Sequence record: LC494302.1
Direction: 5' to 3' (one strand)
DNA from: Escherichia phage SP27
DNA: 64,000 nt
The translations under genes and the position numbers were made by a program. The notes under the pieces were generated by a model. The model did no database searches, was not told where the DNA came from, and worked only from the letters and a program-made list of their open reading frames with translations. Positions 13,012 to 24,443 of this stretch are shown here, piece by piece; the first letter of the stretch is position 1; each line of letters starts with the position of its first letter.

Positions 13012-13040
13012 TTGACATAGTTTGATAGTACTGGCATAAT
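13012..13040 (+). promoter_or_regulatory. class II promoter
   Basis: CAGTACTATTGACAtagtttgatAGTACTGGCATAAT; no 5' hairpin. Confidence 0.6.
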
Positions 13041-13073
13041 AGATTTTATCAAGACAACTAAGAGGAAATTAAA

Positions 13074-13418
13074 ATGGCTAACATCAATACTATAGCAGCA
13101 CAAAATATCAACCTGTCTTCTGTTGAAGTTGTACACATTGCCGCCCGGCGTTGGTTCCAGGCGTCTTATGGTAATACTTATTTCTCTTTAACGGTAGATG
13201 TTGAAATCAATGGCGAATTTATTGAAGTAGTAAACGTGCCGTTCCAATATGGCTACGGGGATCATTTTGACACTGTAGCAATGGAAGAATTTAGCAAGGT
13301 TATTAATATGGAAGGTAAAGAGTTTTTACGCGGTTCTTATCTTTCCCGTTTTTGCCGTGATAATAATATCACTGTTTATAGTTCGGTAACTGATGTTAAA
13401 CGCAAAAAAGATCTTTAA
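13074..13418 (+). CDS. hypothetical protein, paralog of 19957..20280
   Basis: shares GNTY, YGYG and C-terminal DVKRKKD with the 19957 gene. Confidence 0.6.
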   Translation: MANINTIAAQNINLSSVEVVHIAARRWFQASYGNTYFSLTVDVEINGEFIEVVNVPFQYGYGDHFDTVAMEEFSKVINMEGKEFLRGSYLSRFCRDNNITVYSSVTDVKRKKDL

Positions 13419-13498
13419 TTAGCTTTACTTTATGCAGATACTTTGATATAGTGTCTGCATAGGGGAAAGAAATTAAATTAACTTAAGAGGATAGTATA

Positions 13499-13768
13499 AT
13501 GAAAAATATCAGTACTTTAATCGATGCAGGTACACATGTTCGGCGGTCTATGGTTGCAACCAGTACTACAAAACAAGTAGCGAGCGGTTATCTTGTATTT
13601 GTGCACGATGGAAAACTCCTGGAACGTTCAATCAATTTTGATGTTAAAAACAATTGCCGTTTTATTATCTTTAAGCGTGAGCAATATAAAATTGATTTAC
13701 CAGCAAAGCCCATTAGTGGGGCGTACAACGTGCAATCAATGTTTGAACGTCAACCATACACCTATTAA
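13499..13768 (+). CDS. hypothetical protein
   Basis: 89 aa. Confidence 0.5.
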   Translation: MKNISTLIDAGTHVRRSMVATSTTKQVASGYLVFVHDGKLLERSINFDVKNNCRFIIFKREQYKIDLPAKPISGAYNVQSMFERQPYTY

Positions 13769-13819
13769 TCAAAACATCGTTAGCGGTCGATTCAGGCCGC
13801 TTATATTGGGGATTATACC

Positions 13820-14092
13820 ATGAACGTTAATCAAGTACTGAATGAGATCGAAAGCATCATTAAACCGATGAAGCGTACTGATGCTATGTTAACACCGGAA
13901 GAATGCCGCCTTTATGAGCGTTACAGCGTCGAACAAGTCCAGGCAATGGCTATGGCTACCCCAGCCGTTAAACCGCCTGAGAATGCGTTACAGGACGTTA
14001 CAGGGGATTATATCATCAATCCAGTACTAGGGAAGATGGCTGCAATCACCGAAGATCAACAAGACTACTTAAGCCAGTACTTAAAAGGTTAA
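13820..14092 (+). CDS. hypothetical protein
   Basis: 90 aa. Confidence 0.5.
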   Translation: MNVNQVLNEIESIIKPMKRTDAMLTPEECRLYERYSVEQVQAMAMATPAVKPPENALQDVTGDYIINPVLGKMAAITEDQQDYLSQYLKG

Positions 14093-14097
14093 TTAAT

Positions 14098-14307
14098 ATG
14101 CTTACTGTACAGGATAAGATCGACATCTTAAAGGTTAATATGTATGTGATTGATGCAGTACCTGGTAAAGTATTTGCATACGATGATAGTACTGTAAGCG
14201 ATTTCTACTATAGCCAGGCCGTGGGGGATCTTTCTGTACAGTCGGTTATTGAAAACGTAGTTAATGCAGCGTATGAGCATTTACTTTCAAATAGTACTTG
14301 CAATTAG
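14098..14307 (+). CDS. hypothetical protein
   Basis: 69 aa immediately after previous gene. Confidence 0.5.
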   Translation: MLTVQDKIDILKVNMYVIDAVPGKVFAYDDSTVSDFYYSQAVGDLSVQSVIENVVNAAYEHLLSNSTCN

Positions 14308-14357
14308 TTTTTAAACGCGTATAATGTTTTACATGAAGGGGAGAAATGATTCTCCCC
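14298..14357 (+). promoter_or_regulatory. class I early promoter plus 5' stem-loop cassette
   Basis: TTGCAA 14298-14303, TATAAT 14320-14325; hairpin GGGGAGAAatgaTTCTCCCC 14338-14357. Confidence 0.65.
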
Positions 14358-14376
14358 ACTAATTAAGGAATATGAA

Positions 14377-14523
14377 ATGAAAGCATCAAAAAAGAGTACT
14401 AACAAGAAAGCACGTTCAACCTTAGATGGGGTATTCCCTTTACGTTTCGTTGATGAAGTGGTTTCCTACCCGCCTGGCCTTACTCCTGAGATGGTAGAAA
14501 GTTTGCGTAAATCTAAAAAATAG
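14377..14523 (+). CDS. hypothetical small basic protein (48 aa, below ORF-track cutoff)
   Basis: read by hand: MKASKKSTNKKARSTLDG...; AAGGA RBS. Confidence 0.4.
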   Translation: MKASKKSTNKKARSTLDGVFPLRFVDEVVSYPPGLTPEMVESLRKSKK

Positions 14524-14526
14524 TAC

Positions 14527-14586
14527 TTGCAATTAGTTTTTAGTACTGTATAATGTTTTACATAGAGGGGGGAAATGGTTCTCCCC
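14527..14586 (+). promoter_or_regulatory. class I early promoter plus 5' stem-loop cassette
   Basis: TTGCAA 14527-14532, TATAAT 14549-14554; hairpin GGGGGGAAatggTTCTCCCC. Confidence 0.65.
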
Positions 14587-14604
14587 AATAACAGGAGAAA
14601 CAAA

Positions 14605-14757
14605 ATGAAACAATACAACGCTCGGTTTGATGTTACTATCGGCAACGGTAAAGGTCAATTCTCTTTCAGTACTCGACGCAGTTATACAGAAAACTTCCTG
14701 CGTAATTGTGCACTGACCGCCGCACAAATTAAACATTACTTTCAGGCTAAAAAATGA
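14605..14757 (+). CDS. hypothetical small protein (50 aa)
   Basis: start at ATG 14605 (MKQYNARFDV) after AGGAGA RBS. Confidence 0.45.
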   Translation: MKQYNARFDVTIGNGKGQFSFSTRRSYTENFLRNCALTAAQIKHYFQAKK

Positions 14758-14843
14758 GATCATTAGCTTATTACAGTTCGGCCCTGGTCGGTGCATTGAT
14801 CGCGGCGTTGTTAGTAACCTATCTATTCTTTATGGTGATTTAA
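14754..14843 (+). CDS. possible small hydrophobic peptide (29 aa)
   Basis: read by hand: MRSLAYYSSALVGALIAALLVTYLFFMVI; ATGA overlap. Confidence 0.3.
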   Translation: MRSLAYYSSALVGALIAALLVTYLFFMVI

Positions 14844-14981
14844 ATGAATCCTAACGGTATAATTTACAGTACTCCTAAAACGAAAGCAGACAAGGTAAAC
14901 GCTAAAAAAGCGAAAGTAAAGGAGTACATCAAGCAAGGCATGACGCGAAAGGCGGCGATTCTAAAAGCTAAAAATAAATGA
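14844..14981 (+). CDS. possible small Lys-rich protein (45 aa)
   Basis: read by hand: MNPNGIIYSTPKTKADKVNAKKAKVKEY... Confidence 0.3.
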   Translation: MNPNGIIYSTPKTKADKVNAKKAKVKEYIKQGMTRKAAILKAKNK

Positions 14982-14987
14982 AAAAAG

Positions 14988-15009
14988 TGGTTGACTTCGG
15001 TCAGCCATT
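14988..15009 (+). terminator. intrinsic terminator (first part of repeated intergenic module)
   Basis: GGTTGAC-TTCG-GTCAGCC hairpin with tetraloop, then TTTTGC. Confidence 0.5.
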
Positions 15010-15112
15010 TTGCTATTATATATTCATTGAGAGATAGCTCACTAGCCCACAGGGTGCAGGAGTGTATCTATTGTATAATGTTTGAGTACTTAAAACTATT
15101 TTTAAAAAAGTA

Positions 15113-15172
15113 CTTGCAAACTATCTCAATAAGCGTATAATGTTTTACATCGCAAGGGGAAACGGTTTCCCC
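15113..15172 (+). promoter_or_regulatory. class I early promoter plus 5' stem-loop cassette
   Basis: TTGCAA 15113-15118, TATAAT 15135-15140; hairpin GGGGAAacggTTTCCCC 15156-15172. Confidence 0.65.
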
Positions 15173-15192
15173 TAGTAATAAGGAAACAAATC

Positions 15193-15534
15193 ATGACTAT
15201 CTCAATTGCTCAATCTAACTTTGAAAACGAAATCATCGCCCAGGCACTGCGTTTAAATGATGGTCGGGCCGAAATCAATTACGGTTTCAATTCAGGCGGT
15301 TGTGAAAAATATCAGTACTTTATAACTGCTGATGGCTGTGTCCTGGGCATCAATACAGTTATTGTAAACATCCAAAAAATTAATTTCAATGATCCAGACG
15401 ATAGCCAGTTTTACATCACTGGCGTAGACGTGAACTATGAGGATGACTCACTAACTGATGATCACACTGGCGAGCGGTTAGAAAGTGCATACGGTGAAGA
15501 TGATTATCAGTCCGGTCCAGAAGATTTCGAATAA
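15193..15534 (+). CDS. hypothetical acidic protein
   Basis: 113 aa. Confidence 0.55.
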   Translation: MTISIAQSNFENEIIAQALRLNDGRAEINYGFNSGGCEKYQYFITADGCVLGINTVIVNIQKINFNDPDDSQFYITGVDVNYEDDSLTDDHTGERLESAYGEDDYQSGPEDFE

Positions 15535-15547
15535 TATAAAAAAATAG

Positions 15548-15606
15548 TTTGACAATAGATTATAGTACTGTATAATGTTTTACATGAAGGGGAGAATAGT
15601 TCTCCC
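15548..15606 (+). promoter_or_regulatory. promoter plus 5' stem-loop cassette (TTGACA variant)
   Basis: TTGACA 15548-15553, TAGTACTGTATAAT -10; hairpin GGGGAGAAtagTTCTCCCC. Confidence 0.65.
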
Positions 15607-15627
15607 CACTAACAGAGAGAAAACAAA

Positions 15628-15840
15628 ATGGCTAATATCCGGTCGAAATTAAAAAATGCAAAACAAGTTTTATTTTCAGATCATGAATACTTTAATAAAG
15701 ATATTACAGGAGTTACAAGTATCAAGGAAGTAAAAGAAAAAACCGGCGTTTTGTGTGATGTGCGATTAGTTGGAACATTTGGGAATAACGTGCTATATCG
15801 CTGCGGTGATTACAATTTTACACTGACTATCATTAACTAA
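15628..15840 (+). CDS. hypothetical protein
   Basis: 70 aa. Confidence 0.55.
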   Translation: MANIRSKLKNAKQVLFSDHEYFNKDITGVTSIKEVKEKTGVLCDVRLVGTFGNNVLYRCGDYNFTLTIIN

Positions 15841-15868
15841 AAATATTATCACAGTACTATCAAAGCTA

Positions 15869-15897
15869 TTGACAATGATTGATAGTACTGGCATAAT
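15869..15897 (+). promoter_or_regulatory. class II promoter
   Basis: CAGTACTATcaaagctATTGACAatgattgatAGTACTGGCATAAT. Confidence 0.6.
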
Positions 15898-15932
15898 AAC
15901 TTTTATCAACTACACTACTAAGGAATTAAAAA

Positions 15933-16112
15933 ATGGCTATCATCGCAAAAACTGAAATCGTTGGTCTGGATTCTATCATCATGACGTTTGAAGATCAAAA
16001 AGGTATGTATGTAGTTTCCTATGGTGATTATGTTCGGGAGTATGAAACGGTAGACGAAGCCTTTGAAAGTTATATTCGCCAGGTGAATAAAGCATACGAC
16101 GACTACCGCTAA
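15933..16112 (+). CDS. hypothetical small protein (59 aa, below ORF-track cutoff)
   Basis: read by hand: MAIIAKTEIVGLDSIIMTFEDQKG...; AAGGA RBS. Confidence 0.45.
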   Translation: MAIIAKTEIVGLDSIIMTFEDQKGMYVVSYGDYVREYETVDEAFESYIRQVNKAYDDYR

Positions 16113-16139
16113 AATATATTACCAGTACTATTAAATCTA

Positions 16140-16168
16140 TTGACAATGTTTGATAGTACTGTATAATA
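16140..16168 (+). promoter_or_regulatory. class II promoter
   Basis: CAGTACTATtaaatctATTGACAatgtttgatAGTACTGTATAAT. Confidence 0.6.
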
Positions 16169-16211
16169 AGTTTTATAAACAGTAGTTAACTTAACCTAAG
16201 AGAGAAATAAA

Positions 16212-16355
16212 ATGATCGCACTGGATTCATTCATCGACGCAGTACTGGCAAAAACTGGCGAGGATCTGACCGCAGAACAATACGCGATGATCGAACAATG
16301 TCAACAGGACGGTAAATCGGTGAAAGATACTGTTAAGATTATCCGCAAGATGTAA
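16212..16355 (+). CDS. hypothetical small protein (47 aa, below ORF-track cutoff)
   Basis: read by hand: MIALDSFIDAVLAKTGEDLTAEQYAMIEQCQQDG...; followed by terminator. Confidence 0.45.
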   Translation: MIALDSFIDAVLAKTGEDLTAEQYAMIEQCQQDGKSVKDTVKIIRKM

Positions 16356-16361
16356 GATTAT

Positions 16362-16390
16362 AGCCCACTGGTTAACGCTGGTGGGCTTTA
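16362..16390 (+). terminator. intrinsic terminator
   Basis: AGCCCACtggttaacgctgGTGGGCT hairpin, weak T-run. Confidence 0.5.
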
Positions 16391-16460
16391 ATTCATCACC
16401 CTATACAATGCCAGTACTCAACCGTTTATCTCGTTAGAATGCGTTACAGGACGTTTAACA

Positions 16461-16658
16461 ATGATTAGCATGAAATCAGTACAAAAACAAATAGAAACAT
16501 TATCAAAAATTAAACGTAAACAGTACTCCTTAGAATATACAATCAATGGTAACTATCATCTAATGAAAGAGAATAATTTTATAGTCATTGATGAATCATT
16601 GCAAATCATTAGTATAGTACTGAAAGCATTAATCAATGACAGAAAAAAATTAAAATAA
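16461..16658 (+). CDS. hypothetical protein
   Basis: 65 aa. Confidence 0.45.
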   Translation: MISMKSVQKQIETLSKIKRKQYSLEYTINGNYHLMKENNFIVIDESLQIISIVLKALINDRKKLK

Positions 16659-16662
16659 TCTA

Positions 16663-16691
16663 TTGACAATATCATCCAGTACTGGCATAAT
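16663..16691 (+). promoter_or_regulatory. class II promoter
   Basis: ATTGACAatatcatccAGTACTGGCATAAT; followed by about 300 nt leader with TGATCA repeats. Confidence 0.55.
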
Positions 16692-16989
16692 ACTTACACC
16701 AAGACGAGAACGTCACTAACCCATAGGGTGCACAAATGTAACTGTATAATATTGATCAAAAAATGATCTGATCAATACTTGATCAATTTGCGTAAAGTAG
16801 TATAATTCTATGCAGTTGGTTAGACGAAAGGTTATGATTAGTAGTGCAAGTGTATAAAAATTTTCATGGTGTATCGTTCCGCACATATGGGGATGAATAT
16901 GTGGTATCATGTGGATTGGAAAAAGTAAGAACAAGTAATATTATTGTCGCATTACAGTACTATAGTATTTTTATAATGAGGTTAAAATA

Positions 16990-17247
16990 ATGGCTGTAGG
17001 ATTCGCGAAAGATGGGGCCGAACAAGACGAGATTAACGCAGTGATTCAGGCTGCCGTTAACCACGCTAGAAAGCAAATTAACGCACAAATAGAATCACTG
17101 ATACATTGCCTCGACTGCGGCGATATAATCCCTGAGAAACGACGCCAGGCCGTTAAGGGATGTAAGTACTGCATAACTTGCCAGGAGGATCATGATAGTA
17201 CTTTTAAACGTCCCCCGCGTAATTGTTGGCATAGATCTATGAGATAA
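16990..17247 (+). CDS. TraR/DksA-family C4 zinc-finger protein
   Basis: INAQ...CLDCGDIIPEKRRQAVKGCKYCITCQ matches the TraR core INAH...CEACGNPIPEARRKIFPGVTLCVECQ as I recall it. Confidence 0.75.
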   Translation: MAVGFAKDGAEQDEINAVIQAAVNHARKQINAQIESLIHCLDCGDIIPEKRRQAVKGCKYCITCQEDHDSTFKRPPRNCWHRSMR

Positions 17248-17253
17248 AAAGTA

Positions 17254-17281
17254 TTGACAGTACTGAAAGATAGTTTATAAT
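17254..17281 (+). promoter_or_regulatory. sigma70-like promoter
   Basis: TTGACAgtactgaaagatagttTATAAT. Confidence 0.55.
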
Positions 17282-17310
17282 ATTTTATATCTTAACTGAG
17301 GATTGAAATC

Positions 17311-17667
17311 ATGGGAATACAACATATCACGCGTACTACTGACAATGGCGAGATCACTGGCTATCAAGTACAGGGCAAAGTAGCACAATTGCAGTACTGG
17401 TTTGTTAAACGTGGAATCATTGCACCGGATCTTGATTATGACCGTGTAGCGTTTATTGATTCTCTTTATGTTGATCCTGATAGTCGGGGCAATGGTGAAG
17501 GTAACGAATTAATGAATGCCTTTATTGATGCCGCCGATGATTCAGATTGTATCATCTTAGAATGCGATACGGGAGAAGATAACGCCTTTAATCTTAAAGA
17601 ATGGTACGAAGGTTTCGGATTCGAGGTATTGATAGATAGTGAATATCCTATCATGATTTTATCATAG
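17311..17667 (+). CDS. GNAT-family acetyltransferase-like protein
   Basis: LYVDPDSRGNGEGNELMNAF resembles the acetyl-CoA-binding R/Q-x-x-G-x-G/A motif of GNAT enzymes; 118 aa. Confidence 0.45.
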   Translation: MGIQHITRTTDNGEITGYQVQGKVAQLQYWFVKRGIIAPDLDYDRVAFIDSLYVDPDSRGNGEGNELMNAFIDAADDSDCIILECDTGEDNAFNLKEWYEGFGFEVLIDSEYPIMILS

Positions 17668-17669
17668 TA

Positions 17670-17727
17670 CTTGCATTTAGTTTTCAGTACTGTTATAGTA
17701 CTTACATCAAGGGGAAACATCTTCCCC
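17670..17727 (+). promoter_or_regulatory. class I early promoter plus 5' stem-loop cassette
   Basis: TTGCAT 17670-17675, TATAGT -10; hairpin GGGGAAacatcTTCCCC 17711-17727. Confidence 0.55.
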
Positions 17728-17745
17728 TACTAAGAGGAAATGAAA

Positions 17746-17934
17746 ATGGAAAACTTATCAAGTATTTTAGTACAAGATGATTTCGGTAATCCTGGAAGTG
17801 CTATCATTGTTCGGGGCAATAAAGCAACGTTTGTTATTGCTGGTGGACCCGTACAGCGTAGCATTAAAAATAATGCTGTTACCATTAATAATGTACGCTA
17901 TCGCTTAGATAAAGAATTAATTCATAAACTGTAA
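17746..17934 (+). CDS. hypothetical protein
   Basis: start at second ATG (MENLSS), 7 nt after GAGGA. Confidence 0.5.
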   Translation: MENLSSILVQDDFGNPGSAIIVRGNKATFVIAGGPVQRSIKNNAVTINNVRYRLDKELIHKL

Positions 17935-17961
17935 TATTAATTTAATAGAGGATAACAATAA

Positions 17962-18285
17962 ATGTACATTCATACTACTATCACAAAGGAAGTCCGTTGC
18001 CAGTTCGAAAGTATTCCGGGCGTATGTTTCATCACTGGTACGTTTTCCCCTGGTGATCGTGATAATCCAGTACTGTTACAATTACGCCATCCATCATGGG
18101 ATAAAGCATTTGATCTACCGTTGAATGAATTCGCAACTACTGCTGAAAAGTACATTAAAAATATTCGCGAGAATGATCGACTATTCATTAATGCTTTTAG
18201 TGATTCCGCGTTAAGCGAGATCCACGGCGTATTGGTTGCAATCATGGAATCAATGCAGAAAACTAAATTCAAACAAGGTGAATAA
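17962..18285 (+). CDS. hypothetical protein
   Basis: 107 aa; GAGGATAA RBS region. Confidence 0.55.
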   Translation: MYIHTTITKEVRCQFESIPGVCFITGTFSPGDRDNPVLLQLRHPSWDKAFDLPLNEFATTAEKYIKNIRENDRLFINAFSDSALSEIHGVLVAIMESMQKTKFKQGE

Positions 18286-18291
18286 AAACTA

Positions 18292-19173: not shown

Positions 19174-19182
19174 GTTTTACAT

Positions 19183-19251
19183 CAGGACGGGGAACGAAAC
19201 AAGTAACCCCGTTAAGTAGTCCAGGAGTAAGACATACGAAAAACTCCCCTG
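19183..19251 (+). other. conserved structured RNA-like element, copy 2
   Basis: near-identical to 8206-8277 with a few substitutions; same flanking promoter arrangement. Confidence 0.4.
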
Positions 19252-19261
19252 ATAAAATAGT

Positions 19262-19289
19262 TTGACAATAGAAAGTAAACGAGTATAAT
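19262..19289 (+). promoter_or_regulatory. sigma70-like promoter
   Basis: TTGACA 19262-19267, 16 bp spacer, TATAAT 19284-19289. Confidence 0.6.
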
Positions 19290-19322
19290 ACTTACATCAA
19301 CCACTGATAAGGAAACATAAAA

Positions 19323-19598
19323 ATGCGGATTCTACTGACAGCTAACGAAATCGAACAAGTACTGACTACTAACCTGGAAGACTGGAAACGTGAAGCAGAT
19401 ATCCAGGCGGTTCAATGGTTAAATGATAAGTTAACGCCGGATGACTTAAGCAAGATTGTAGATCCTCAATTCTACGAAGATATCCACGACACCGCGTTAA
19501 GCGTCGAGGATGTACTAGATAAGCACTTTATTGATACTGATTTGCAGGTTTACGGTCGTAAAAACTTTATCACTATTCACGACATTTACAATAATTAA
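19323..19598 (+). CDS. hypothetical acidic protein
   Basis: 91 aa. Confidence 0.55.
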   Translation: MRILLTANEIEQVLTTNLEDWKREADIQAVQWLNDKLTPDDLSKIVDPQFYEDIHDTALSVEDVLDKHFIDTDLQVYGRKNFITIHDIYNN

Positions 19599-19601
19599 GT
19601 A

Positions 19602-19664
19602 TTGACAAAGTATCTTAGTACTGTATAATAGTTTACATCGAGTGAGGGGAAACGGTTCCCCTCC
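19602..19664 (+). promoter_or_regulatory. promoter plus 5' stem-loop cassette
   Basis: TTGACA 19602-19607, TATAAT 19624-19629; hairpin GAGGGGAAacggTTCCCCTC. Confidence 0.65.
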
Positions 19665-19686
19665 TAACAAAGAGAGAGAAATAAAA

Positions 19687-19869
19687 ATGGCTAAGTGCAC
19701 TATCTGCAAGAAAGAAATAGTATTAGTTCCAAGTGCCCGTGAACGTGCCGCTCGGTTCGGTGGCAAAGCGTCAGACTATACAAAAATGTTTACTGCCCAT
19801 ACAGCTTGCCAGGTAGCAAAACGTTCACAAGAAAGCGTAGAATTAATGCGTAAACTTTCCAAAAAATAA
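19687..19869 (+). CDS. hypothetical small protein with CxxC...HxxC
   Basis: start at ATG 19687 (MAKCTICKK); possible zinc-binding residues. Confidence 0.5.
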   Translation: MAKCTICKKEIVLVPSARERAARFGGKASDYTKMFTAHTACQVAKRSQESVELMRKLSKK

Positions 19870-19871
19870 GT

Positions 19872-19933
19872 ATTGACAAAGTATCTTAGTACTGTATAAT
19901 AGTTTACATCAAGTGAGGGGAATGGTTCCCCTC
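19872..19933 (+). promoter_or_regulatory. promoter plus 5' stem-loop cassette (near-duplicate of the 19602 cassette)
   Basis: identical GTATTGACAAAGTATCTTAGTACTGTATAATAGTTTACATC; hairpin GAGGGGAAtggTTCCCCTC. Confidence 0.65.
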
Positions 19934-19956
19934 CTAACTAAAAGAGAGAAATAAAA

Positions 19957-20280
19957 ATGGCTATGATCCTTGCCCAGAAAGTAGAATTGAAAATTGTAAC
20001 CTCCTTTGACATTAACGTTAATCGGTGGACTGATTCACACGGCAATACTTACCACTCTTGCTACGTGTCTGCGTTAATTGGCGACCGCTGGGAAGACCTG
20101 GGACACGAAACCTTTACATACGGTTACGGTACACAAGGCGAATACACGGGCTTGGAGATCATTAAAGAAACCGTTATAGGTTTCAACCCGAAAGAAAAAG
20201 TTATTCACCGCATCGAGGAAGAGATCAACAAAGAAATAACAGTTCGCTACCACGATGTAAAACGTAAGAAAGACATGTAA
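19957..20280 (+). CDS. hypothetical protein, paralog of 13074..13418
   Basis: shares GNTY, YGYG and DVKRKKD. Confidence 0.6.
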   Translation: MAMILAQKVELKIVTSFDINVNRWTDSHGNTYHSCYVSALIGDRWEDLGHETFTYGYGTQGEYTGLEIIKETVIGFNPKEKVIHRIEEEINKEITVRYHDVKRKKDM

Positions 20281-20302
20281 TAGAATCCATTTAAAGTACT
20301 AT

Positions 20303-20331
20303 TTGACATTGCCCAGATAGTACTTTATAAT
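20303..20331 (+). promoter_or_regulatory. sigma70-like promoter
   Basis: TTGACAttgcccagatagtacttTATAAT. Confidence 0.5.
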
Positions 20332-20375
20332 AGACTCTAACTTGTAGTACTAACTCAACTAATAGGATGTATACC

Positions 20376-20771
20376 ATGATTACTAAATTCTACGCTACCC
20401 GTGAAGCTGCCCGTATTGTTGCACGCGAGGAAGGCGAAACATTTAAAGACATGGGCAAAGATGCACCGAAAGGTCAACGCTGGGCCGTACAGTTCAAAGA
20501 GATCTCTGATATTGTGAATTCACCGGAGCCAGTACTAACAGCAGCAGAACTAAAACGAGCGGATTTACTGGCGTCAATACTTGATGCACAAGATGAGTTT
20601 ATCGCTGATTCTGATATCAAAGTACAGACAAACCACACCGCTTGGACTCACGCGGATCACCTGGCAAACCTTAAGCGTCCAAGTGAACTGATTCGCAACC
20701 AGAAAGAGATCCGACACGACCGTAAGGGTAATCGTGTAACAGTATACAGTAAACGCCGCCAGGTTATCTAA
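20376..20771 (+). CDS. hypothetical protein, paralog of 7335..7601
   Basis: start at ATG 20376 (MITKFYATREAARIVAR); C-term HDRKGNRVTVY. Confidence 0.6.
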   Translation: MITKFYATREAARIVAREEGETFKDMGKDAPKGQRWAVQFKEISDIVNSPEPVLTAAELKRADLLASILDAQDEFIADSDIKVQTNHTAWTHADHLANLKRPSELIRNQKEIRHDRKGNRVTVYSKRRQVI

Positions 20772-20803
20772 TAACTTGCAGTACTAACAACACGGCGGGA
20801 TCA

Positions 20804-20829
20804 GTTCCCGCCTTTTTTATAGGACAAAC
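20804..20829 (+). terminator. intrinsic terminator
   Basis: GGCGGGAtcagTTCCCGCC followed by TTTTTT. Confidence 0.7.
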
Positions 20830-20832
20830 AAA

Positions 20833-21087
20833 ATGATTAAGGTTCAACTATATAAAGATAACATCTTACGGGTACACTATAAAGCACCTCAGAGAATCAT
20901 CACAAAGGCCGTACAGCTTGCAAATGAGTTTATTAATGGTAACCTATTACCTAGGAAGTTAAGCAACGGGAAACTGCGTGTAATCGACGTGGACACTAAC
21001 AACAGGATAGTAATCGAGAACACAGGAAAGATAAACCTTTATGAGCATCAACAATACAATAAGAAAATAAAACTAATATCACGTTGA
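20833..21087 (+). CDS. hypothetical protein
   Basis: 84 aa. Confidence 0.5.
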   Translation: MIKVQLYKDNILRVHYKAPQRIITKAVQLANEFINGNLLPRKLSNGKLRVIDVDTNNRIVIENTGKINLYEHQQYNKKIKLISR

Positions 21088-21140
21088 CAGTACTCAAATG
21101 TTTTAGTACTATATGTACATACCAACACGGGGGAAACAAA

Positions 21141-21383
21141 ATGATTACTTTAGAAAAACGTATCAAAGAAACTACATCGCTGGTGGAACTGTTAACAGTA
21201 CTCAAATGTAAAACAACACCATTCAGCACGCCGGACTTTATTAATATGGTTGATGTTAATGGTCGCTATCGTATCACGGTCGAACAAGGAGCGGCGAAAG
21301 TATTCAGTACTAAAAACACGAAGGAAGTGATCCACGCCGTTAATGTTAAAAAAGTAGTTGCCATTGATAGTAAAGTACTGTAA
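21141..21383 (+). CDS. hypothetical protein
   Basis: start at ATG 21141 (MITLEKRIKE). Confidence 0.5.
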   Translation: MITLEKRIKETTSLVELLTVLKCKTTPFSTPDFINMVDVNGRYRITVEQGAAKVFSTKNTKEVIHAVNVKKVVAIDSKVL

Positions 21384-21414
21384 GATAGTTACATTAACTC
21401 AAGGAGAACATGCA

Positions 21415-21999
21415 ATGCGTAATTATACTAAATTCATCCGTACACTGTCAGAAATGGAAACCAACAAAGAGATCCTTTCAGCTTGTCGGTTAGCTGGCCT
21501 GGAGATCATCGGTGCTGGTTCTTCCCGTATAGTTTTCGCTTTAAATGATCGGTTAGTGATTAAGGTCGCGAATTGTGATGCGGGTGTAGAACAAAATGAA
21601 ACTGAATGTAAGGTATGGAATTTTTTAGACTATGACCGCCCTCAGTTGAAACAGTACTTTGCAAAGGTGCATATGCATTTATGCGATCCTGATAATATGT
21701 TTATCGTTATGGATCGGTTGAGTACTGCAAGTAAAGGCAGTGTGAAGCACGTAAACGCGTGCAATGAATTAAAGTACAATATTAAACGTAATGCAATCGA
21801 CCGCCAGCACCGCTTTGCTGATGCACTACAACACGTTGATGATACATTATCAACACTAACGATAAGAGATATCAGAAAACAGAATATCGGCCAGGATCGT
21901 AATGGACTTATTAAAGTACTTGATTACGGTTTAACCAGCAATATCTGGAATCAGTACTATAAAAAGCGTGATGTGGCAGCAAGTAAGGTAACACGATAA
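21415..21999 (+). CDS. protein-kinase-like protein (putative small Ser/Thr kinase)
   Basis: IGAGSSRIVF (Gly loop), VIKV (beta3 Lys), RDIRKQNIG (catalytic-loop-like) and KVLDYG (DFG-like) in canonical order; start at ATG 21415 after AAGGAG. Confidence 0.5.
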   Translation: MRNYTKFIRTLSEMETNKEILSACRLAGLEIIGAGSSRIVFALNDRLVIKVANCDAGVEQNETECKVWNFLDYDRPQLKQYFAKVHMHLCDPDNMFIVMDRLSTASKGSVKHVNACNELKYNIKRNAIDRQHRFADALQHVDDTLSTLTIRDIRKQNIGQDRNGLIKVLDYGLTSNIWNQYYKKRDVAASKVTR

Positions 22000-22013
22000 A
22001 AAAGATTAAAAAA

Positions 22014-22035
22014 GGGATTGACTCCGGTCAGTCCC
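22014..22035 (+). terminator. intrinsic terminator (first part of repeated intergenic module)
   Basis: GGGATTGAC-TCCG-GTCAGTCCC hairpin, identical to copies at 19022 and 24270. Confidence 0.55.
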
Positions 22036-22140
22036 TTTGCTATTATATATCCATTGAGAGATAACTCACTGACCCATAGGGTGCGGAAGTGTATCTATTA
22101 TATAAGTATTCAGTACTGAAAACTATTTTTAAAAAAGTAC

Positions 22141-22202
22141 TTGCATTGTACTTAGAATCAAGTATAATGTTTTATATCGAGAGGGGAAATGGTTCTCCCT
22201 GG
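22141..22202 (+). promoter_or_regulatory. class I early promoter plus 5' stem-loop cassette
   Basis: TTGCAT 22141-22146, TATAAT 22163-22168; hairpin AGGGGAAatggTTCTCCCT. Confidence 0.6.
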
Positions 22203-22219
22203 CAATAAGGAATAAAATC

Positions 22220-22441
22220 ATGACTACAATGACTTGCATTTACGCTTCCAATCTACTGAATGATGCGGCCTTTAATGTTGATTCAGAATATCAATGTTAT
22301 CGGGATGAAAATAAAAAAGTTTTTGTAGTTGATAATAATGGTTTCCATATTGAATTACAATCCGGCTTCACTGGTGTTGATGGTAAATCAGTATGGGGCG
22401 TACAGGATGATAAAGGCACATATCATTTTAAACGTAATTAA
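22220..22441 (+). CDS. hypothetical protein
   Basis: 73 aa. Confidence 0.55.
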   Translation: MTTMTCIYASNLLNDAAFNVDSEYQCYRDENKKVFVVDNNGFHIELQSGFTGVDGKSVWGVQDDKGTYHFKRN

Positions 22442-22444
22442 GTA

Positions 22445-22503
22445 TTGACAAAGTATACCAGTACTGTATAATAGTTTACATCAAGGGGAGAATAGTTCTC
22501 CCC
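22445..22503 (+). promoter_or_regulatory. promoter plus 5' stem-loop cassette
   Basis: TTGACA 22445-22450, TATAAT 22467-22472; hairpin GGGGAGAAtagTTCTCCCC 22485-22503. Confidence 0.65.
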
Positions 22504-22525
22504 GATACTAAAAGGAAACAAAATT

Positions 22526-22798
22526 ATGTCCAGCTACTCCGCTACTATGATCATTAAAGATATGAACGGTAATCCTACTTCTGCTGGTGGATCATTTGGA
22601 AACATTAATTTAGATGGTCGGTTATCCATGCAATCAGCAATCGATGCAGCGAAAGAAGTTTTTAAGAATGAATGTACTGTTAGTAAGCTGGATTATATGG
22701 GATTTGCTATCGAAAAAACTAATCGTTTTGTGGACTACAAAAAACCACTGATGATTGATACTAACCTGAAAGCAAACGAAGTGGAGTACTTATTATGA
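22526..22798 (+). CDS. hypothetical protein
   Basis: 90 aa. Confidence 0.55.
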   Translation: MSSYSATMIIKDMNGNPTSAGGSFGNINLDGRLSMQSAIDAAKEVFKNECTVSKLDYMGFAIEKTNRFVDYKKPLMIDTNLKANEVEYLL

Positions 22799-22986
22799 CA
22801 GTTGAAGAAGTTAAAAAAGTACTGGCAGTACTACGCTATCATAATCATTGTAAGGTGAAGAATGATCCTGATTATCTTGATTCATCCCTGGAAGAGGATA
22901 CACTACAAGCAATAAGCCATATGCAAACATTAGCAAAGCGTATGACCGAAAAGAATAGACCGGACTATATCGGAAATAAAATTTAA
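22795..22986 (+). CDS. hypothetical protein
   Basis: ATGA overlap with previous gene. Confidence 0.5.
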   Translation: MTVEEVKKVLAVLRYHNHCKVKNDPDYLDSSLEEDTLQAISHMQTLAKRMTEKNRPDYIGNKI

Positions 22987-22993
22987 AAAGTAC

Positions 22994-23054
22994 TTGCATT
23001 GTAGTTAGATTAACGTATAATGTTTTACATAGAGCGGGGGAATAGTTCTCCCGC
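22994..23054 (+). promoter_or_regulatory. class I early promoter plus 5' stem-loop cassette
   Basis: TTGCAT 22994-22999, TATAAT 23016-23021; hairpin GCGGGGGAAtagTTCTCCCGC. Confidence 0.65.
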
Positions 23055-23072
23055 CAGTCCAGGAGATACACC

Positions 23073-23336
23073 ATGAACACTATCGAAATCACTATCAATG
23101 CACACGTATACGACAACGTAATCATGCAAACTACTATGACCGCTAATGATACCAGTACTTTGCGGAATACTGTTATTAGTGCCGTATGTGCCGCTATCGG
23201 TGATGTCGCCCTGGAAAATGCAGAACATATCAACAACGGTTTCACTATGTGCAAGCGTGATAACGCAAAACATATCATCGTAGAAGGTTACGGCGGTGTA
23301 GAATTTAATGTTTATATGAAAAAAGTACTTGCATAA
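23073..23336 (+). CDS. hypothetical protein
   Basis: 87 aa. Confidence 0.55.
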   Translation: MNTIEITINAHVYDNVIMQTTMTANDTSTLRNTVISAVCAAIGDVALENAEHINNGFTMCKRDNAKHIIVEGYGGVEFNVYMKKVLA

Positions 23337-23385
23337 TAACTAAAACAAAGTATAATGTTTTGCATAGGGGGAGATATCCTCCCCC
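23329..23385 (+). promoter_or_regulatory. class I early promoter plus 5' stem-loop cassette
   Basis: TTGCAT 23329-23334, TATAAT 23351-23356; hairpin GGGGGAGatatcCTCCCCC. Confidence 0.6.
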
Positions 23386-23403
23386 ACTAAAAGGAGTAAT
23401 AAA

Positions 23404-23628
23404 ATGGCTAACTTTGATGAACTGATGCGGGAAGTAGCTAACCTGGCAGAAGAGAAGAAATCATTCGATTCTATCTATAACACCGCTCATCGTGATTCAG
23501 TACTGGCATGTACTCAGGATCAAAAAGATGAACTAATCGCCACCTATCATGAAGCATGGAAGTACTACCGACAATGGGAGAAAGAAGAAAGAGAGTCTAC
23601 CATTGACGGCCTCAACAATCTAATCTAA
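23404..23628 (+). CDS. hypothetical protein
   Basis: 74 aa. Confidence 0.55.
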   Translation: MANFDELMREVANLAEEKKSFDSIYNTAHRDSVLACTQDQKDELIATYHEAWKYYRQWEKEERESTIDGLNNLI

Positions 23629-23647
23629 AAGTTTTATTTCAGTACTA

Positions 23648-23676
23648 TTGACATAGCTTGATAGTACTGATGTAAT
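23648..23676 (+). promoter_or_regulatory. class II promoter
   Basis: CAGTACTATTGACAtagcttgatAGTACTGATGTAAT. Confidence 0.5.
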
Positions 23677-23704
23677 AACTTTACTAACTACAAGGGGAAA
23701 CATA

Positions 23705-23962
23705 ATGGAACAGTTCACACAATATCGGGTAAATCCTCAAGCTATGGCCTACGTAGAAGACCATAAAACATTACCAGTACTAACACCAATTAAAGGCCAT
23801 ATCTATCGTGCAATGTCATGGAATACCGCCCAGGATGGATATACTACCGCTGGCGTGGGTATGTATTGCGGGAATGGTGAATGGTTTGATCCAAATAATC
23901 CGGTAGCCATTGACAGTACTGAAAAAATGAAATGGGCCGACTACATCGAAGATATTTCATAA
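23705..23962 (+). CDS. hypothetical protein
   Basis: 85 aa. Confidence 0.55.
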   Translation: MEQFTQYRVNPQAMAYVEDHKTLPVLTPIKGHIYRAMSWNTAQDGYTTAGVGMYCGNGEWFDPNNPVAIDSTEKMKWADYIEDIS

Positions 23963-23968
23963 AACTAT

Positions 23969-24029
23969 TTGACAGTACTAACCAGTAATGTATAATGTTT
24001 TACATAGAGCGGGGGAATAGTTCTCCCGC
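23969..24029 (+). promoter_or_regulatory. promoter plus 5' stem-loop cassette
   Basis: TTGACA 23969-23974, TATAAT 23991-23996; hairpin GCGGGGGAAtagTTCTCCCGC, identical to the one at 23034. Confidence 0.65.
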
Positions 24030-24051
24030 CAATAGTTTGGAGTAAAACATT

Positions 24052-24252
24052 ATGTCTATCGCTATCGCCCTGGTTGAAGTACTGAAAGAAGCTAAAGCCA
24101 ACCAGATCGACGTAAAGATCCAGGAACTACAAAACGGCGTAATCGGCTGTACTTGTACCGCTGGTGGAGCGGCAGACTATCGAGAACACGAATCACTCGA
24201 ATCACTGGTTCGGTATCTTACCATGATCGTTGATGATTGGAGAATCATCTAA
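24052..24252 (+). CDS. hypothetical protein
   Basis: 66 aa. Confidence 0.55.
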   Translation: MSIAIALVEVLKEAKANQIDVKIQELQNGVIGCTCTAGGAADYREHESLESLVRYLTMIVDDWRII

Positions 24253-24269
24253 CAAAAAAGAATAAAAAA

Positions 24270-24291
24270 GGGATTGACTCCGGTCAGTCCC
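24270..24291 (+). terminator. intrinsic terminator (first part of repeated intergenic module)
   Basis: GGGATTGAC-TCCG-GTCAGTCCC hairpin. Confidence 0.55.
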
Positions 24292-24414
24292 TTTGCTATT
24301 ATATACGCATAGACAAAAACTAGCCCACAGGGTGCATAGGTGTATCTAAAATATATGGTTAATAACGGTGAGTAACTATCTGCTGGTGGAGTGAAAACTA
24401 TTAATAAAAAAGTA

Positions 24415-24443
24415 TTGACAAAGTATATCAGTACTGCGATAAT
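24415..24443 (+). promoter_or_regulatory. class II-like promoter
   Basis: TTGACAaagtatatcAGTACTGCGATAAT; downstream variant hairpin GGGCGGCaatggtgcgacGGCCC. Confidence 0.5.

What the first reader, a model, noticed from the sequence alone, without database searches (positions are those of the whole stretch)
13012..24443. A second promoter class with AGTACT flanking the -35 and no 5' hairpin
At about 7958, 13012, 15869, 16140, 16663, 23648 and 24415 the promoter reads (C)AGTACTAT-TGACA-N10-AGTACTG-[GC]ATAAT and lacks the hairpin. Two promoter architectures in one region suggest two regulatory classes, for example differential timing, or an operator-like role for the paired AGTACT sites.
Basis: seen in the sequence. 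Interest (0 to 1): 0.5.

Follow-up and report, generated by a model that had tools for sequence, protein, structure and literature searches.

The report
Early phage promoters bracketed by AGTACT
Four of the seven flagged sites are a real, conserved sub-class of host-type early promoters in the terminal repeat of an E. coli jumbo phage, but their AGTACT hexamer is not promoter-specific: it is a palindromic word that the whole phage genome, and related phage genera, carry at 5 to 20 times the chance frequency.

Summary
The window comes from an Asteriusvirus-type E. coli jumbo phage (97% identical to vB_EcoM_E9.1). The finding lies in its ~21-kb terminal repeat, which is packed with sigma70-type promoters and tiny ORFs.

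All seven sites are near-consensus promoters. The described architecture holds for only four: 13012, 15869, 16140 and 23648. In these, a 9-bp inverted repeat, CAGTACTAT-N12/21-ATAGTACTG, brackets the -35, and the leader is unstructured. The same cassette occurs in Klebsiella phage RaK2. Sites 7958, 16663 and 24415 have only the spacer copy and have structured leaders.

The spacer AGTACT (TTGACA-N9-AGTACT) is shared with the hairpin-leader promoters, so it does not define a class.

AGTACT occurs 270 times in the window (about 19-22 expected), and 172 of these lie inside ORFs in all three frames. It biases codon and dipeptide choice and has symmetric flanks (T-N-C-AGTACT-G-N-A). It is enriched in four enterobacterial jumbo-phage genera but is rare in E. 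coli, T4 and PA5oct.

Best reading (inference): AGTACT is the site of an unidentified two-fold-symmetric DNA reader, and in-phase pairs at promoters act as operators.

Side findings are a total absence of GCGC, a Chi cluster in the repeat, and a 7.6-kb block with no ACT on the sense strand.

The parts
13004..13040 (+). Core class-II promoter. Inverted-repeat arms CAGTACTAT (13004-13012) and ATAGTACTG (13025-13033), N12 between them. -35 TTGACA 13012-17, 17-bp spacer, TGg-CATAAT extended -10 (13035-40). Unstructured leader to the ATG at 13074.
15852..15897 (+). Core class-II promoter, N21 variant. Arms at 15852-60 and 15882-90, -35 at 15869-74, TGg-CATAAT at 15892-97. Unstructured leader.
16123..16167 (+). 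Core class-II promoter, N21 variant. Arms at 16123-31 and 16153-61, -35 at 16140-45, 16-bp spacer, TATAAT at 16162-67. Unstructured leader.
23640..23676 (+). Core class-II promoter, N12 variant. Arms at 23640-48 and 23661-69, -35 at 23648-53, weak -10 TGTAAT at 23671-76. Unstructured leader to the ATG at 23705.
20295..20331 (+). The two AGTACT copies are 24 bp apart. Unstructured leader.
7950..7978 (+). Listed site that is not core class II. TTGACT-N9-AGTACT-GG-CATAAT with the spacer copy only. Its structured leader carries CCCATAGGGTGC about 30 nt downstream. It converges with a similar minus-strand promoter at 8122.
16663..16691 (+). Listed site that is not core class II. Spacer AGTACT only. 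The leader carries CCCATAGGGTGC (16720-31).
24415..24443 (+). Listed site that is not core class II. Spacer AGTACT only, -10 is TGc-GATAAT, leader MFE -9 kcal/mol.
4822..25800 (.). Inferred direct terminal repeat and early (host-takeover-like) region. Window position 4822 aligns to position 1 of the E9.1 record. The right boundary is inferred from the published ~21-kb repeat and from where the promoter- and AGTACT-dense zone ends (last site 25614). AGTACT density is 6.5 per kb.
1..64000 (.). Genome-wide AGTACT word. 270 copies, 172 of them inside ORFs in all three frames, with a preferred extended form T-N-C-AGTACT-G-N-A. Absent from 25615-30410 and 32844-40548.

Best explanation
Shown:
- The seven sites are sigma70-type early promoters in the terminal-repeat early region of an Asteriusvirus jumbo phage.
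- Four of them (13012, 15869, 16140, 23648) form a genuine, evolutionarily conserved sub-class. A 9-bp inverted repeat, CAGTACTAT / ATAGTACTG, has its AGTACT cores 22 or 31 bp apart (2 or 3 helical turns) and covers about -43 (or -52) to -14. Its last TG is the extended -10 TG where the spacer is 17 bp. The leader is short and unstructured.
- AGTACT itself is a genome-wide, clade-wide selected palindrome. It sits at fixed registers in roughly half of the early promoters of both classes.

Inferred:
- AGTACT, in its extended form T-N-C-AGTACT-G-N-A, is the recognition site of an unidentified two-fold-symmetric factor that reads double-stranded DNA. The factor would most likely be phage-encoded or delivered by the virion.
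- Single sites scattered over the genome would mark phage DNA. They are about 70 times denser in the window than in an E. coli sample.
- In-phase pairs at promoters would give cooperative, operator-like occupancy over the -35 and extended -10, and so modulate early transcription, most simply by shut-off.
- The two classes would then differ mainly after initiation: a 5' hairpin that stabilises the mRNA versus an open leader.
For: Promoters:
- There are 10 perfect 12/12 sigma70 matches on the + strand in 11.7 kb. Four of the listed sites (13012, 15869, 16663, 24415) score 11/12 with a TG extended -10, and 16140 scores 12/12.
- The inverted-repeat bracket occurs 4 times against 0.00 expected.
- The same cassette occurs twice in RaK2 and five times in a 121Q-like contig. 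AGTACTATTGACA, GATAGTACT and several single positions are invariant, while the six spacer bases between these two blocks vary.
- Registers: AGTACT starts at -5 or +15 from the -35 hexamer start in 11+17 window promoters, 11+23 RaK2 promoters and 10+8 metagenomic promoters.
- Among promoters chosen only by their -35 and -10, 14 of 28 in the repeat have AGTACT at +15. None of 23 elsewhere in the window does.

DNA-level selection:
- 270 copies against 18.6 expected; it is the top hexamer, z = 75.
- 172 copies lie in ORFs, split 63/46/63 across frames.
- Ser-Thr is encoded AGTACT in 63 of 123 cases against 15.7 expected. S-T dipeptides number 123 against 66 expected, and V-L 158 against 86.
- Flanks are symmetric even in coding-only sites: C at -1 in 77/172, G at +1 in 74/172, T at -3 in 77/172, A at +3 in 92/172.
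- Per-base divergence against E9.1 is 1.5% within sites and 4.4% in flanks.
- Density is kept but positions turn over between genera: 25 against 25 sites with 1 shared in 15.5 kb of orthologous genes.
- Spacing is slightly more even than random (CV 0.6-0.9).

Distribution:
- Enriched 4-20 fold in E9.1, RaK2, Munch, GAP32 and related metagenomic contigs.
- Density is 0.04-0.17 per kb in PA5oct, T4 and E. coli K-12.
Against: - No binding protein was identified. Of the 20 early-region proteins scanned against Pfam, none showed a classical DNA-binding domain (HTH, RHH); the only nucleic-acid/RNAP-related hit was a DksA/TraR C4 zinc finger at 16990-17247.
- A 6-8 bp palindrome is short for a classical HTH dimer.
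- Fixed promoter registers could partly reflect common descent of promoter cassettes spread by recombination rather than function.
- In 32,847-40,479 the word is replaced by AGTACA on one strand only. This shows that a strand-specific constraint is also at work and that a perfect palindrome is not indispensable.
- Nothing here tests timing, repression or activation.
Confidence: 0.42

Rival explanations
1. AGTACT is the target of a phage DNA-modifying enzyme, a methyltransferase or a site-specific nickase. The promoter copies would make early promoter activity depend on modification state, for example fully modified injected DNA versus newly replicated DNA.
For: - A palindromic 6-mer with symmetric flanks is the typical format of type-II methyltransferase or nuclease sites.
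- These phages encode several DNA methyltransferases (papers PMC7247149, PMC11895373, PMC3622015).
Against: - A modification target does not need to be enriched 5-20 fold or to reshape dipeptide usage.
- The one methyltransferase examined, RaK2 gp194, is a DNMT3-like C5 enzyme. That fits CpG methylation, and AGTACT has no CpG.
- fEgEco12 DNA is cut as predicted by ten enzymes, but ScaI was not among them.
Confidence: 0.15
2. AGTACT is a Chi-like self-recognition signal for a translocating enzyme such as a helicase-nuclease or a packaging or segregation motor. It would spare or guide phage DNA. The promoter copies would be ordinary members of this population, sitting where they do not disturb sigma70 contacts.
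For: - The behaviour is density-type, with positional turnover.
- There is a 25-100 fold contrast with host DNA.
- Density is highest in the terminal repeat next to the linear ends, where E. coli Chi is also clustered: 8 + 3 copies against 0.18 expected per strand.
- A one-orientation variant, AGTACA, occupies one block.
Against: - It does not explain why AGTACT is invariant at exact registers (-5, +15) while the surrounding spacer varies, in three lineages.
- It does not explain the conserved 9-bp inverted-repeat bracket.
- Known Chi-type signals are asymmetric.
Confidence: 0.13
3. The promoter AGTACT copies are intrinsic promoter elements read by host RNA polymerase, through spacer and extended -10 contacts or DNA flexibility at the central TA step. 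The genome-wide enrichment would be an unrelated phenomenon.
For: - In promoters with a 17-bp spacer, the T of AGTACT and the following G are exactly the T-15 G-14 extended -10 motif. They accompany the weaker CATAAT or GATAAT hexamers.
- The registers are fixed relative to the -35.
Against: - In promoters with a 16-bp spacer the TG falls at -14/-13, not the canonical position.
- The upstream copy (-5, -7 or -16) has no known sigma70 or alpha contact logic.
- Two independent explanations for the same rare hexamer are unparsimonious.
Confidence: 0.12
4. The word acts at RNA level, with AGUACU in transcripts serving as an endoribonuclease or RNA-binding-protein site. Alternatively it is produced by a biased repair or mutation process rather than by selection for a reader.
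For: - A neighbouring 7.6-kb block bans ACT on the sense strand only. That must be an RNA-level or single-strand-level constraint.
Against: - The reverse-complement-symmetric flank preference out to +/-3 is unexpected for an RNA site.
- Promoter copies lie upstream of the transcription start.
- One-mismatch neighbours such as AGTATT/AATACT are not depleted (ratios 1.5-1.65), which argues against a very-short-patch-type repair drive.
- Individual sites are under purifying selection.
Confidence: 0.08

Closest known systems
PeSL (promoter-early stem-loop) cassettes of T4-type phages (PMC2839356, PMC4122927)
   Same: - Repeated, near-consensus sigma70 early promoters sit between many small early ORFs in plastic regions.
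- The cassettes are shared between related phages and are not tied to orthologous genes. The RaK2 class-II promoter drives the orthologue of window gene 19323-19598, which here has a different promoter.
- Composite terminator/promoter hairpins also exist here, at 14984, 19019, 22011 and 24267.
   Different: - In PeSLs the stem-loop lies upstream of the promoter. Here the class-I hairpin is in the transcript leader and class II has none.
- No PeSL description includes an AGTACT-type bracket or a genome-wide word.
Host-takeover modules in long terminal repeats: SPO1 terminal redundancy with its early promoters and the TF1 protein; T5 pre-early region (from my own knowledge)
   Same: - Long direct terminal repeat packed with strong host-type promoters and very small genes.
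- In SPO1 a phage-encoded DNA-binding protein (TF1) binds preferred sites overlapping early promoters and also binds phage DNA globally.
   Different: - TF1 discriminates phage DNA through a modified base (hydroxymethyluracil), not through a sequence word.
- No reader is known here, and the homology was not tested.
Stoperators of cluster A mycobacteriophages (L5 gp71 sites) (from my own knowledge)
   Same: One short repressor site is used both at the early promoter and at many additional places around the genome.
   Different: - Stoperators are asymmetric 13-mers, number about 20-35 per genome, are oriented with transcription and lie in intergenic DNA.
- AGTACT is a palindrome, has on the order of a thousand copies per genome, and lies mostly inside ORFs in all frames.
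Genome-wide selected words: Chi, DNA uptake sequences, KOPS (from my own knowledge)
   Same: Strong over-representation, presence inside coding sequence at the expense of codon choice, density conserved while positions turn over, and contrast with foreign DNA.
   Different: Those words are asymmetric and orientation-dependent, are 8-12 nt long, belong to cellular genomes, and have no fixed place in promoters.
E. coli SlmA-binding site GTGAGTACTCAC (from my own knowledge)
   Same: It shares the central AGTACT core and the two-fold symmetry.
   Different: - The phage word prefers C/G at +/-1, where the SlmA site has G/C. G is the least used base at -1 (9%), and GAGTACTC occurs 0 times in 270.
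- The outer G and C of the SlmA site are also not favoured.

Membership tests
Sigma70 (RpoD)-type promoter, extended -10 subtype | -35 hexamer close to TTGACA and -10 hexamer close to TATAAT (A at position 2, T at position 6), separated by 16-18 bp | tested here: met
   Six of the seven listed sites score 11-12 of 12 and 7950 scores 10 of 12, except that 23648 has TGTAAT as its -10.
Sigma70 (RpoD)-type promoter, extended -10 subtype | TG at -15/-14 | tested here: met
   Met at 7950, 13012, 15869, 16663 and 24415, which have 17-bp spacers and TGn before the hexamer. Not canonical at 16140, where the 16-bp spacer puts TG at -14/-13.
Sigma70 (RpoD)-type promoter, extended -10 subtype | Transcription actually starts there with host E-sigma70 | not testable with these tools
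   Needs 5'-end mapping or in vitro transcription.
PeSL cassette (T4-type phages) | Sigma70-like early promoter repeated between small ORFs of a plastic region | tested here: met
   gene/promoter reshuffling against RaK2.
PeSL cassette (T4-type phages) | Stem-loop (terminator) immediately upstream of the promoter | tested here: not met
   Upstream of the four core promoters there is A/T-rich sequence (AAAATATTATCAC), not a hairpin. The terminator scan finds none there.
Repressor operator overlapping a promoter | Inverted repeat overlapping the -35 and/or -10 | tested here: met
   CAGTACTAT-N12/21-ATAGTACTG spans about -43 or -52 to -14. It occurs 4 times against 0.00 expected.
Repressor operator overlapping a promoter | Conserved in related genomes while flanking bases vary | tested here: met
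   RaK2 and 121Q-like copies have invariant arms, while the six spacer bases between TTGACA and GAT vary.
Repressor operator overlapping a promoter | The site is largely confined to regulatory regions | tested here: not met
   172 of the 270 AGTACT copies lie inside ORFs, and the word is enriched in structural and replication gene regions too.
Repressor operator overlapping a promoter | A cognate DNA-binding protein exists | tested here: inconclusive
   Of the 20 early proteins scanned against Pfam, none has a classical DNA-binding domain (HTH, RHH); the only related hit is a DksA/TraR C4 zinc finger. The rest of the ~350-kb genome was not screened.
SlmA-binding site | GTG...CAC flanks around the AGTACT core | tested here: not met
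   The flanks are T-N-C...G-N-A, and GAGTACTC occurs 0 times. The consensus itself is recalled from memory.

The most novel reading that the evidence does not exclude
Enterobacterial RaK2-like jumbo phages write a sequence-coded 'self' signature into unmodified DNA. The signature would be a palindromic word, (C)AGTACT(G), kept at roughly 1.4-7 copies per kb against 0.06 per kb in the E. coli sample, together with an absolute ban on GCGC. A clade-specific reader would use it to tell phage DNA from host DNA. The same word, placed in helical phase around the -35 of early promoters, would double as the operator that times the terminal-repeat genes.
Probability: 0.3. Interest if true: 0.85.

Novelty: new variant of a known kind. 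Interest (0 to 1): 0.62.

Why it matters
Regulation in RaK2/Asteriusvirus-type jumbo phages is essentially unstudied. I found no paper in the searchable library that mentions AGTACT for them.

A conserved operator-like bracket gives a concrete handle on how the host-takeover genes in the terminal repeat are switched.

The larger point is that one hexamer is selected so strongly that it biases dipeptide usage across about 350 kb and across four genera, while being rare in the host. That predicts an abundant, sequence-specific reader of phage DNA, acting in transcription control, protection or organisation. Such a reader could be fished out directly with an AGTACT probe.

The word also offers a simple bioinformatic marker for this clade in metagenomes.

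Tried and rejected
- **AGTACT copies inside ORFs as internal promoters.** Rejected. Only about 25 real promoters have a -10 after the word, and outside the repeat there is no intergenic preference (3.6 per kb inside ORFs against 4.3 per kb outside).
- **Codon-usage artefact.** Rejected. All three frames are used, and amino-acid dipeptides are shifted in one order only.
- **Very-short-patch-like repair drive.** Not supported. One-off neighbours are not depleted.
- **SlmA sites.** The flanks do not fit.
- **RaK2 gp194 methyltransferase as the AGTACT enzyme.** It is DNMT3-like, a C5 enzyme of the CpG type.
- **Rfam and tRNA scans of the window.** Nothing found.
- **Pfam and PHROG scans.** I scanned genes behind class-II promoters, early genes conserved with RaK2, and genes in the AGTACT-free block. 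Functions are unknown apart from a GNAT acetyltransferase, a DksA/TraR zinc finger and a ParE-like domain.
- **Literature.** Searches for AGTACT, CAGTACTG, ScaI, Asteriusvirus, RaK2 and promoters found no description of the motif. The published CBB promoter tables do not contain it.
- **First AGTACT-free stretch (25,615-30,410) as a polar segment.** Rejected. It is an array of paralogous ~70-aa ORFs with normal TACT and AGTA counts, and its TGTACT copies sit at homologous ORF offsets.

Full report
**Where the window comes from.** Window 12,000-20,000 is 97% identical to Escherichia phage vB_EcoM_E9.1 and 93% identical to fEgEco12, phAPEC6 and other Asteriusvirus jumbo phages of about 350-375 kb. 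Window position 4,822 aligns to position 1 of the E9.1 record. These phages carry direct terminal repeats of about 21 kb (fEgEco12: 20,993 bp, PMC13070987). By inference, window ~4,822-25,800 is therefore the terminal repeat. It consists of very small ORFs of unknown function separated by promoter-like intergenic regions. A relative, phage CBB, was reported to have RpoD-like promoters concentrated in such an early small-ORF region and in its terminal repeat (PMC5259590).

**Checking the observation.**
- All seven coordinates hold near-consensus sigma70-type promoters.
- The consensus scan finds ten perfect 12/12 matches on the + strand in 11.7 kb. It scores 13012, 15869, 16663 and 24415 at 11/12 with a TG extended -10.
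- TTGACA-N9-AGTACT occurs 14 times in the window against 0.01 expected.
- The described architecture, with AGTACT on both sides of the -35, exists at only four sites.
  - At 13012 and 23648 the upstream copy ends one base before TTGACA, and the two copies are 22 bp apart.
  - At 15869 and 16140 it lies nine bases further upstream, and the copies are 31 bp apart.
- Sites 7958, 16663 and 24415 have the spacer copy only. Site 20303 is an unlisted relative.
- Folding the first 50 nt of each predicted transcript gives three groups.
  - Leaders at 13012, 15869, 16140, 23648 and 20303 are unstructured (MFE -0.1 to -2.1 kcal/mol). They fold less well than their own shuffles (z +0.9 to +1.7).
  - Hairpin promoters 15549, 19602 and 22445 give a perfect 8-bp GC-rich hairpin (MFE -13 to -15 kcal/mol, z -2.6 to -3.3).
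  - Leaders at 7958 (-13.7), 16663 (-8.0) and 24415 (-9.0) are intermediate. They belong to other groups.
- Two of these three run into a conserved CCCAYMGGGTGC element about 30 nt after the -10. That element has 10 copies against 0.11 expected.

**The real class II.**
- The four core promoters share more than AGTACT. They carry a 9-bp inverted repeat, CAGTACTAT...ATAGTACTG, separated by 12 or 21 bases. The pattern occurs 4 times against 0.00 in shuffles.
- In promoter coordinates it spans about -43 (or -52) to -14. The left arm ends on the first T of TTGACA. Where the spacer is 17 bp, the final TG of the right arm is the T-15 G-14 extended -10.
- An exact-pattern scan of the viral collection found the same cassette only in a 348,532-bp 121Q-like contig and in the 345,809-bp RaK2 genome.
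- In RaK2 both copies read AGTACTATTGACA-N6-GATAGTACTG-N-TATAAT, followed by an unstructured leader, a Shine-Dalgarno sequence and an ATG.
- In the eight-sequence alignment AGTACTATTGACA, GATAGTACT and several single positions are invariant, while the six spacer bases between these two blocks vary.
- Early-region proteins shared by RaK2 and this phage are only 30-73% identical. The cassette is therefore constrained beyond what sigma70 needs.
- The cassette is not tied to one gene. One RaK2 copy drives the orthologue of window gene 19323-19598, which here has a different promoter.

**AGTACT does not define the class.**
- Nine hairpin-leader promoters have the same spacer copy.
- Many more have AGTACT overlapping the -35, as AGTAC|TTGCAA.
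- Measured from the first base of the -35 hexamer, AGTACT starts almost only at -5 and +15, which are 20 bp apart. There are a few at +5 and -7/-8, scattered copies at -16 and -25, and several out of phase further upstream.
- The counts at -5 and +15 are 11 and 17 in the window, 11 and 23 in RaK2 early loci, and 10 and 8 in two metagenomic relatives.
- Among promoters picked only by their -35 and -10 hexamers, 14 of 28 in the repeat have AGTACT exactly at +15. None of 23 elsewhere in the window and none of 14 in mid-genome E9.1 samples do.

**AGTACT is a genome-wide selected word.**
- It occurs 270 times in the window (18.6 expected from shuffles). It is by far the most over-represented hexamer (z = 75).
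- 172 copies lie inside ORFs, spread over all three frames as 63/46/63.
- Coding sequence is bent to make the word.
  - Ser-Thr is written AGTACT in 63 of 123 cases (15.7 expected).
  - The dipeptides S-T (123 against 66 expected) and V-L (158 against 86) are in excess. T-S (56) and L-V (84) are not.
  - NAG-TAC-TNN occurs 45 times (5.9 expected).
- The flanks are reverse-complement symmetric even in coding-only sites, giving T-N-C-AGTACT-G-N-A. CAGTACTG occurs 65 times and TCAGTACTGA 21 times. This points to a two-fold-symmetric reader of double-stranded DNA.
- Against E9.1, per-base divergence is 1.5% inside sites and 4.4% in flanks.
- Between E9.1 and Salmonella phage Munch, 15.5 kb of orthologous genes hold 25 and 25 sites, of which only one is shared.
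- Spacing is slightly more even than random (CV 0.6-0.9). Density, not position, is what is conserved.
- One-mismatch neighbours are not depleted. This argues against a repair-drive origin.

**Distribution across phages and controls.**

| Sample | AGTACT |
|---|---|
| E9.1 structural region, 25 kb | 46 copies (~8.6 expected from base composition in each of these five 25-kb samples) |
| E9.1 replication region, 25 kb | 35 copies |
| RaK2 (Klebsiella), 25 kb | 53 copies |
| Munch (Salmonella), 25 kb | 42 copies |
| GAP32 (Cronobacter), 25 kb | 53 copies |
| RaK2 early loci | 6.5-6.8 per kb |
| PA5oct (Pseudomonas), 25 kb | 1 copy |
| T4, 12 kb | 2 copies |
| E. coli K-12, 50 kb | 3 copies (0.06 per kb) |

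**How it most likely works.**
- *Shown:* these are sigma70-type early promoters; the bracket is conserved; the word has fixed promoter registers; selection on it acts at DNA level, depends on density and extends across the clade.
- *Inferred, the effect at promoters:* Pairs two or three helical turns apart across the -35 would bind cooperatively. They cover the sigma region-4 and extended -10 contacts, so early promoters would be modulated, most simply by shut-off.
- *Inferred, the genome-wide role:* The many single sites would mark phage DNA against a host background that is about 70 times poorer in the word.
- *Inferred, the class difference:* The clearest class difference is in the leader. 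From established knowledge of 5' stem-loops that protect E. coli mRNAs from RNase E, the classes may differ in mRNA stability and translation rather than in promoter timing.
- *Rivals:* a modification or nicking target, a Chi-like signal for a translocase, an intrinsic RNA-polymerase element, and an RNA-level or mutational origin. They are listed with their tests in the Rival explanations section.
None of the 20 early proteins scanned against Pfam has a classical DNA-binding domain (HTH, RHH); the only related hit is a DksA/TraR C4 zinc finger. RaK2 gp194 is a DNMT3-like C5 methyltransferase.

**Comparison with what is known.**
- The closest described system is the PeSL cassettes of T4-type phages (PMC4122927). 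They share the repeated early promoters and the shuffling. Their stem-loop lies upstream of the promoter, and no AGTACT-type bracket is described for them.
- SPO1's terminal-repeat takeover module with TF1, the stoperators of cluster A mycobacteriophages, and Chi or uptake sequences each share one aspect. These comparisons are from my own knowledge.
- No paper in the library mentions AGTACT for jumbo phages. The RaK2, phAPEC6, fEgEco12, Sharanji and CBB papers do not mention it either.

**Side findings.**
1. GCGC is absent from the window (56 expected). It is also absent from every sampled stretch of the four AGTACT-rich phages: E9.1, RaK2, Munch and GAP32. It is present in PA5oct and T4, and there are 342 copies in 50 kb of E. 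coli.
2. E. coli Chi is clustered in the repeat, with 8 copies on the + strand and 3 on the - strand against 0.18 expected per strand. One - strand copy lies about 578 bp from the E9.1 left end.
3. The most striking is that window 32,847-40,479 contains no ACT on the + strand.
   - 116 copies are expected. ACT otherwise occurs every ~50 bp, and the next-longest gap for any trinucleotide is 3.4 kb.
   - AGT, the reverse complement, is normal.
   - Within the block AGTACT is replaced by 41-43 AGTACA, in all frames and in non-paralogous genes. TGTACT is absent.
   - The block is conserved in E9.1. It is also conserved in TH47, which has 1,038 mismatches to the window in the block, where 48 ACT-creating changes would be expected if substitutions were random. 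It is relaxed in ph0011.
   - A one-strand ban cannot come from a reader of double-stranded DNA. It suggests immunity of these transcripts to an ACU-cutting RNase, or a single-strand DNA process. It also shows that the AGTACT pressure persists under that ban.

**Limits.**
- Gene calls are my own greedy ORF set.
- The repeat's right boundary is inferred.
- Only samples of other genomes were read, not whole genomes.
- Nothing about timing, binding or modification could be tested.

Noticed in passing
window 32847-40479 (+ strand); E9.1 L001 27199-34834; TH47 L028 2638-9614: A 7.6-kb block of about 20 co-oriented genes of unknown function has no ACT trinucleotide on the sense strand (116 expected), while AGT is normal. 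CT-containing trinucleotides are generally low. AGTACT is replaced by 41-43 AGTACA, and TGTACT is 0. The block is conserved in E9.1 and in the divergent TH47, and is relaxed in ph0011. This suggests an RNA-level or single-strand-level ban, for example immunity to an ACU-cleaving RNase.
   Followed up: partly
whole window; loci L001-L006, L010-L013, L015-L019, L021-L025, L028, L029: GCGC is completely absent (56 expected in the window). The same holds for every sampled stretch of E9.1, RaK2, Munch and GAP32, all of which are AGTACT-rich. PA5oct, T4 and E. coli have normal or high counts.
   Followed up: partly
window 12380, 16377, 17839, 19107, 21179, 22583, 24160, 24382 (+); 5398, 12318, 63553 (-): E. 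coli Chi (GCTGGTGG) is clustered in the terminal repeat (0.18 expected per strand). The orientations would face RecBCD entering from the genome ends, and the - strand copy at 5398 lies about 578 bp from the E9.1 left end. Mid-genome samples have 0-1 copies per strand in 25 kb.
   Followed up: partly
window 5911-, 6127-, 8004+, 8061-, 10485-, 15046+, 16720+, 19076+, 22073+, 24324+: There are ten copies of CCCAYMGGGTGC (0.11 expected). Each lies about 30 nt downstream of a sigma70-like -10, and some sit in convergent pairs (7950+/8122-). They may be a family of short non-coding leaders or small RNAs. No Rfam hit.
   Followed up: partly
window 14984-15019, 19019-19054, 22011-22046, 24267-24302: A 12-bp-stem hairpin, AAAGGGATTGACTCCGGTCAGTCCCTTT, has a stem that contains a TTGACT -35 and is followed by TATTAT. 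This is a composite terminator/promoter in the PeSL sense. CBB annotates a similar sequence as a terminator.
   Followed up: partly
window 25615-30410 (ORF array ~25848-31617): A tandem array of overlapping ~70-aa ORFs begins just past the inferred end of the terminal repeat. The ORFs are inferred to be paralogous from TGTACT copies at similar ORF offsets; their sequence similarity was not tested. AGTACT is not enriched (0 copies), while TACT and AGTA counts are normal.
   Followed up: partly
window 8196-8275 and 19180-19260: An ~80-nt structured leader lies between a hairpin-type promoter and a second, tandem TTGACA/TATAAT promoter (8288, 19262). The two copies are closely similar.
   Followed up: no
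window 20833-21087, 16990-17247, 17311-17667: Early genes with recognisable domains are a ParE-like toxin domain (E = 6e-11), a DksA/TraR C4 zinc finger and a GNAT acetyltransferase. All other early proteins scanned are of unknown function.
   Followed up: no
L004 16708-17601 (RaK2 gp194): The RaK2 C5-cytosine methyltransferase matches, over its full length, the catalytic domains of mammalian DNMT3A/3B better than bacterial M.HaeIII or M.HhaI. This fits the CpG methylation reported for RaK2 DNA.
   Followed up: partly
window 6354-6425: There are two tandem copies of tcAGTACTgaataatAGTACTcctatatagaaaga, so AGTACT pairs sit 13 bp apart in a non-coding stretch near the left end of the repeat.
   Followed up: no
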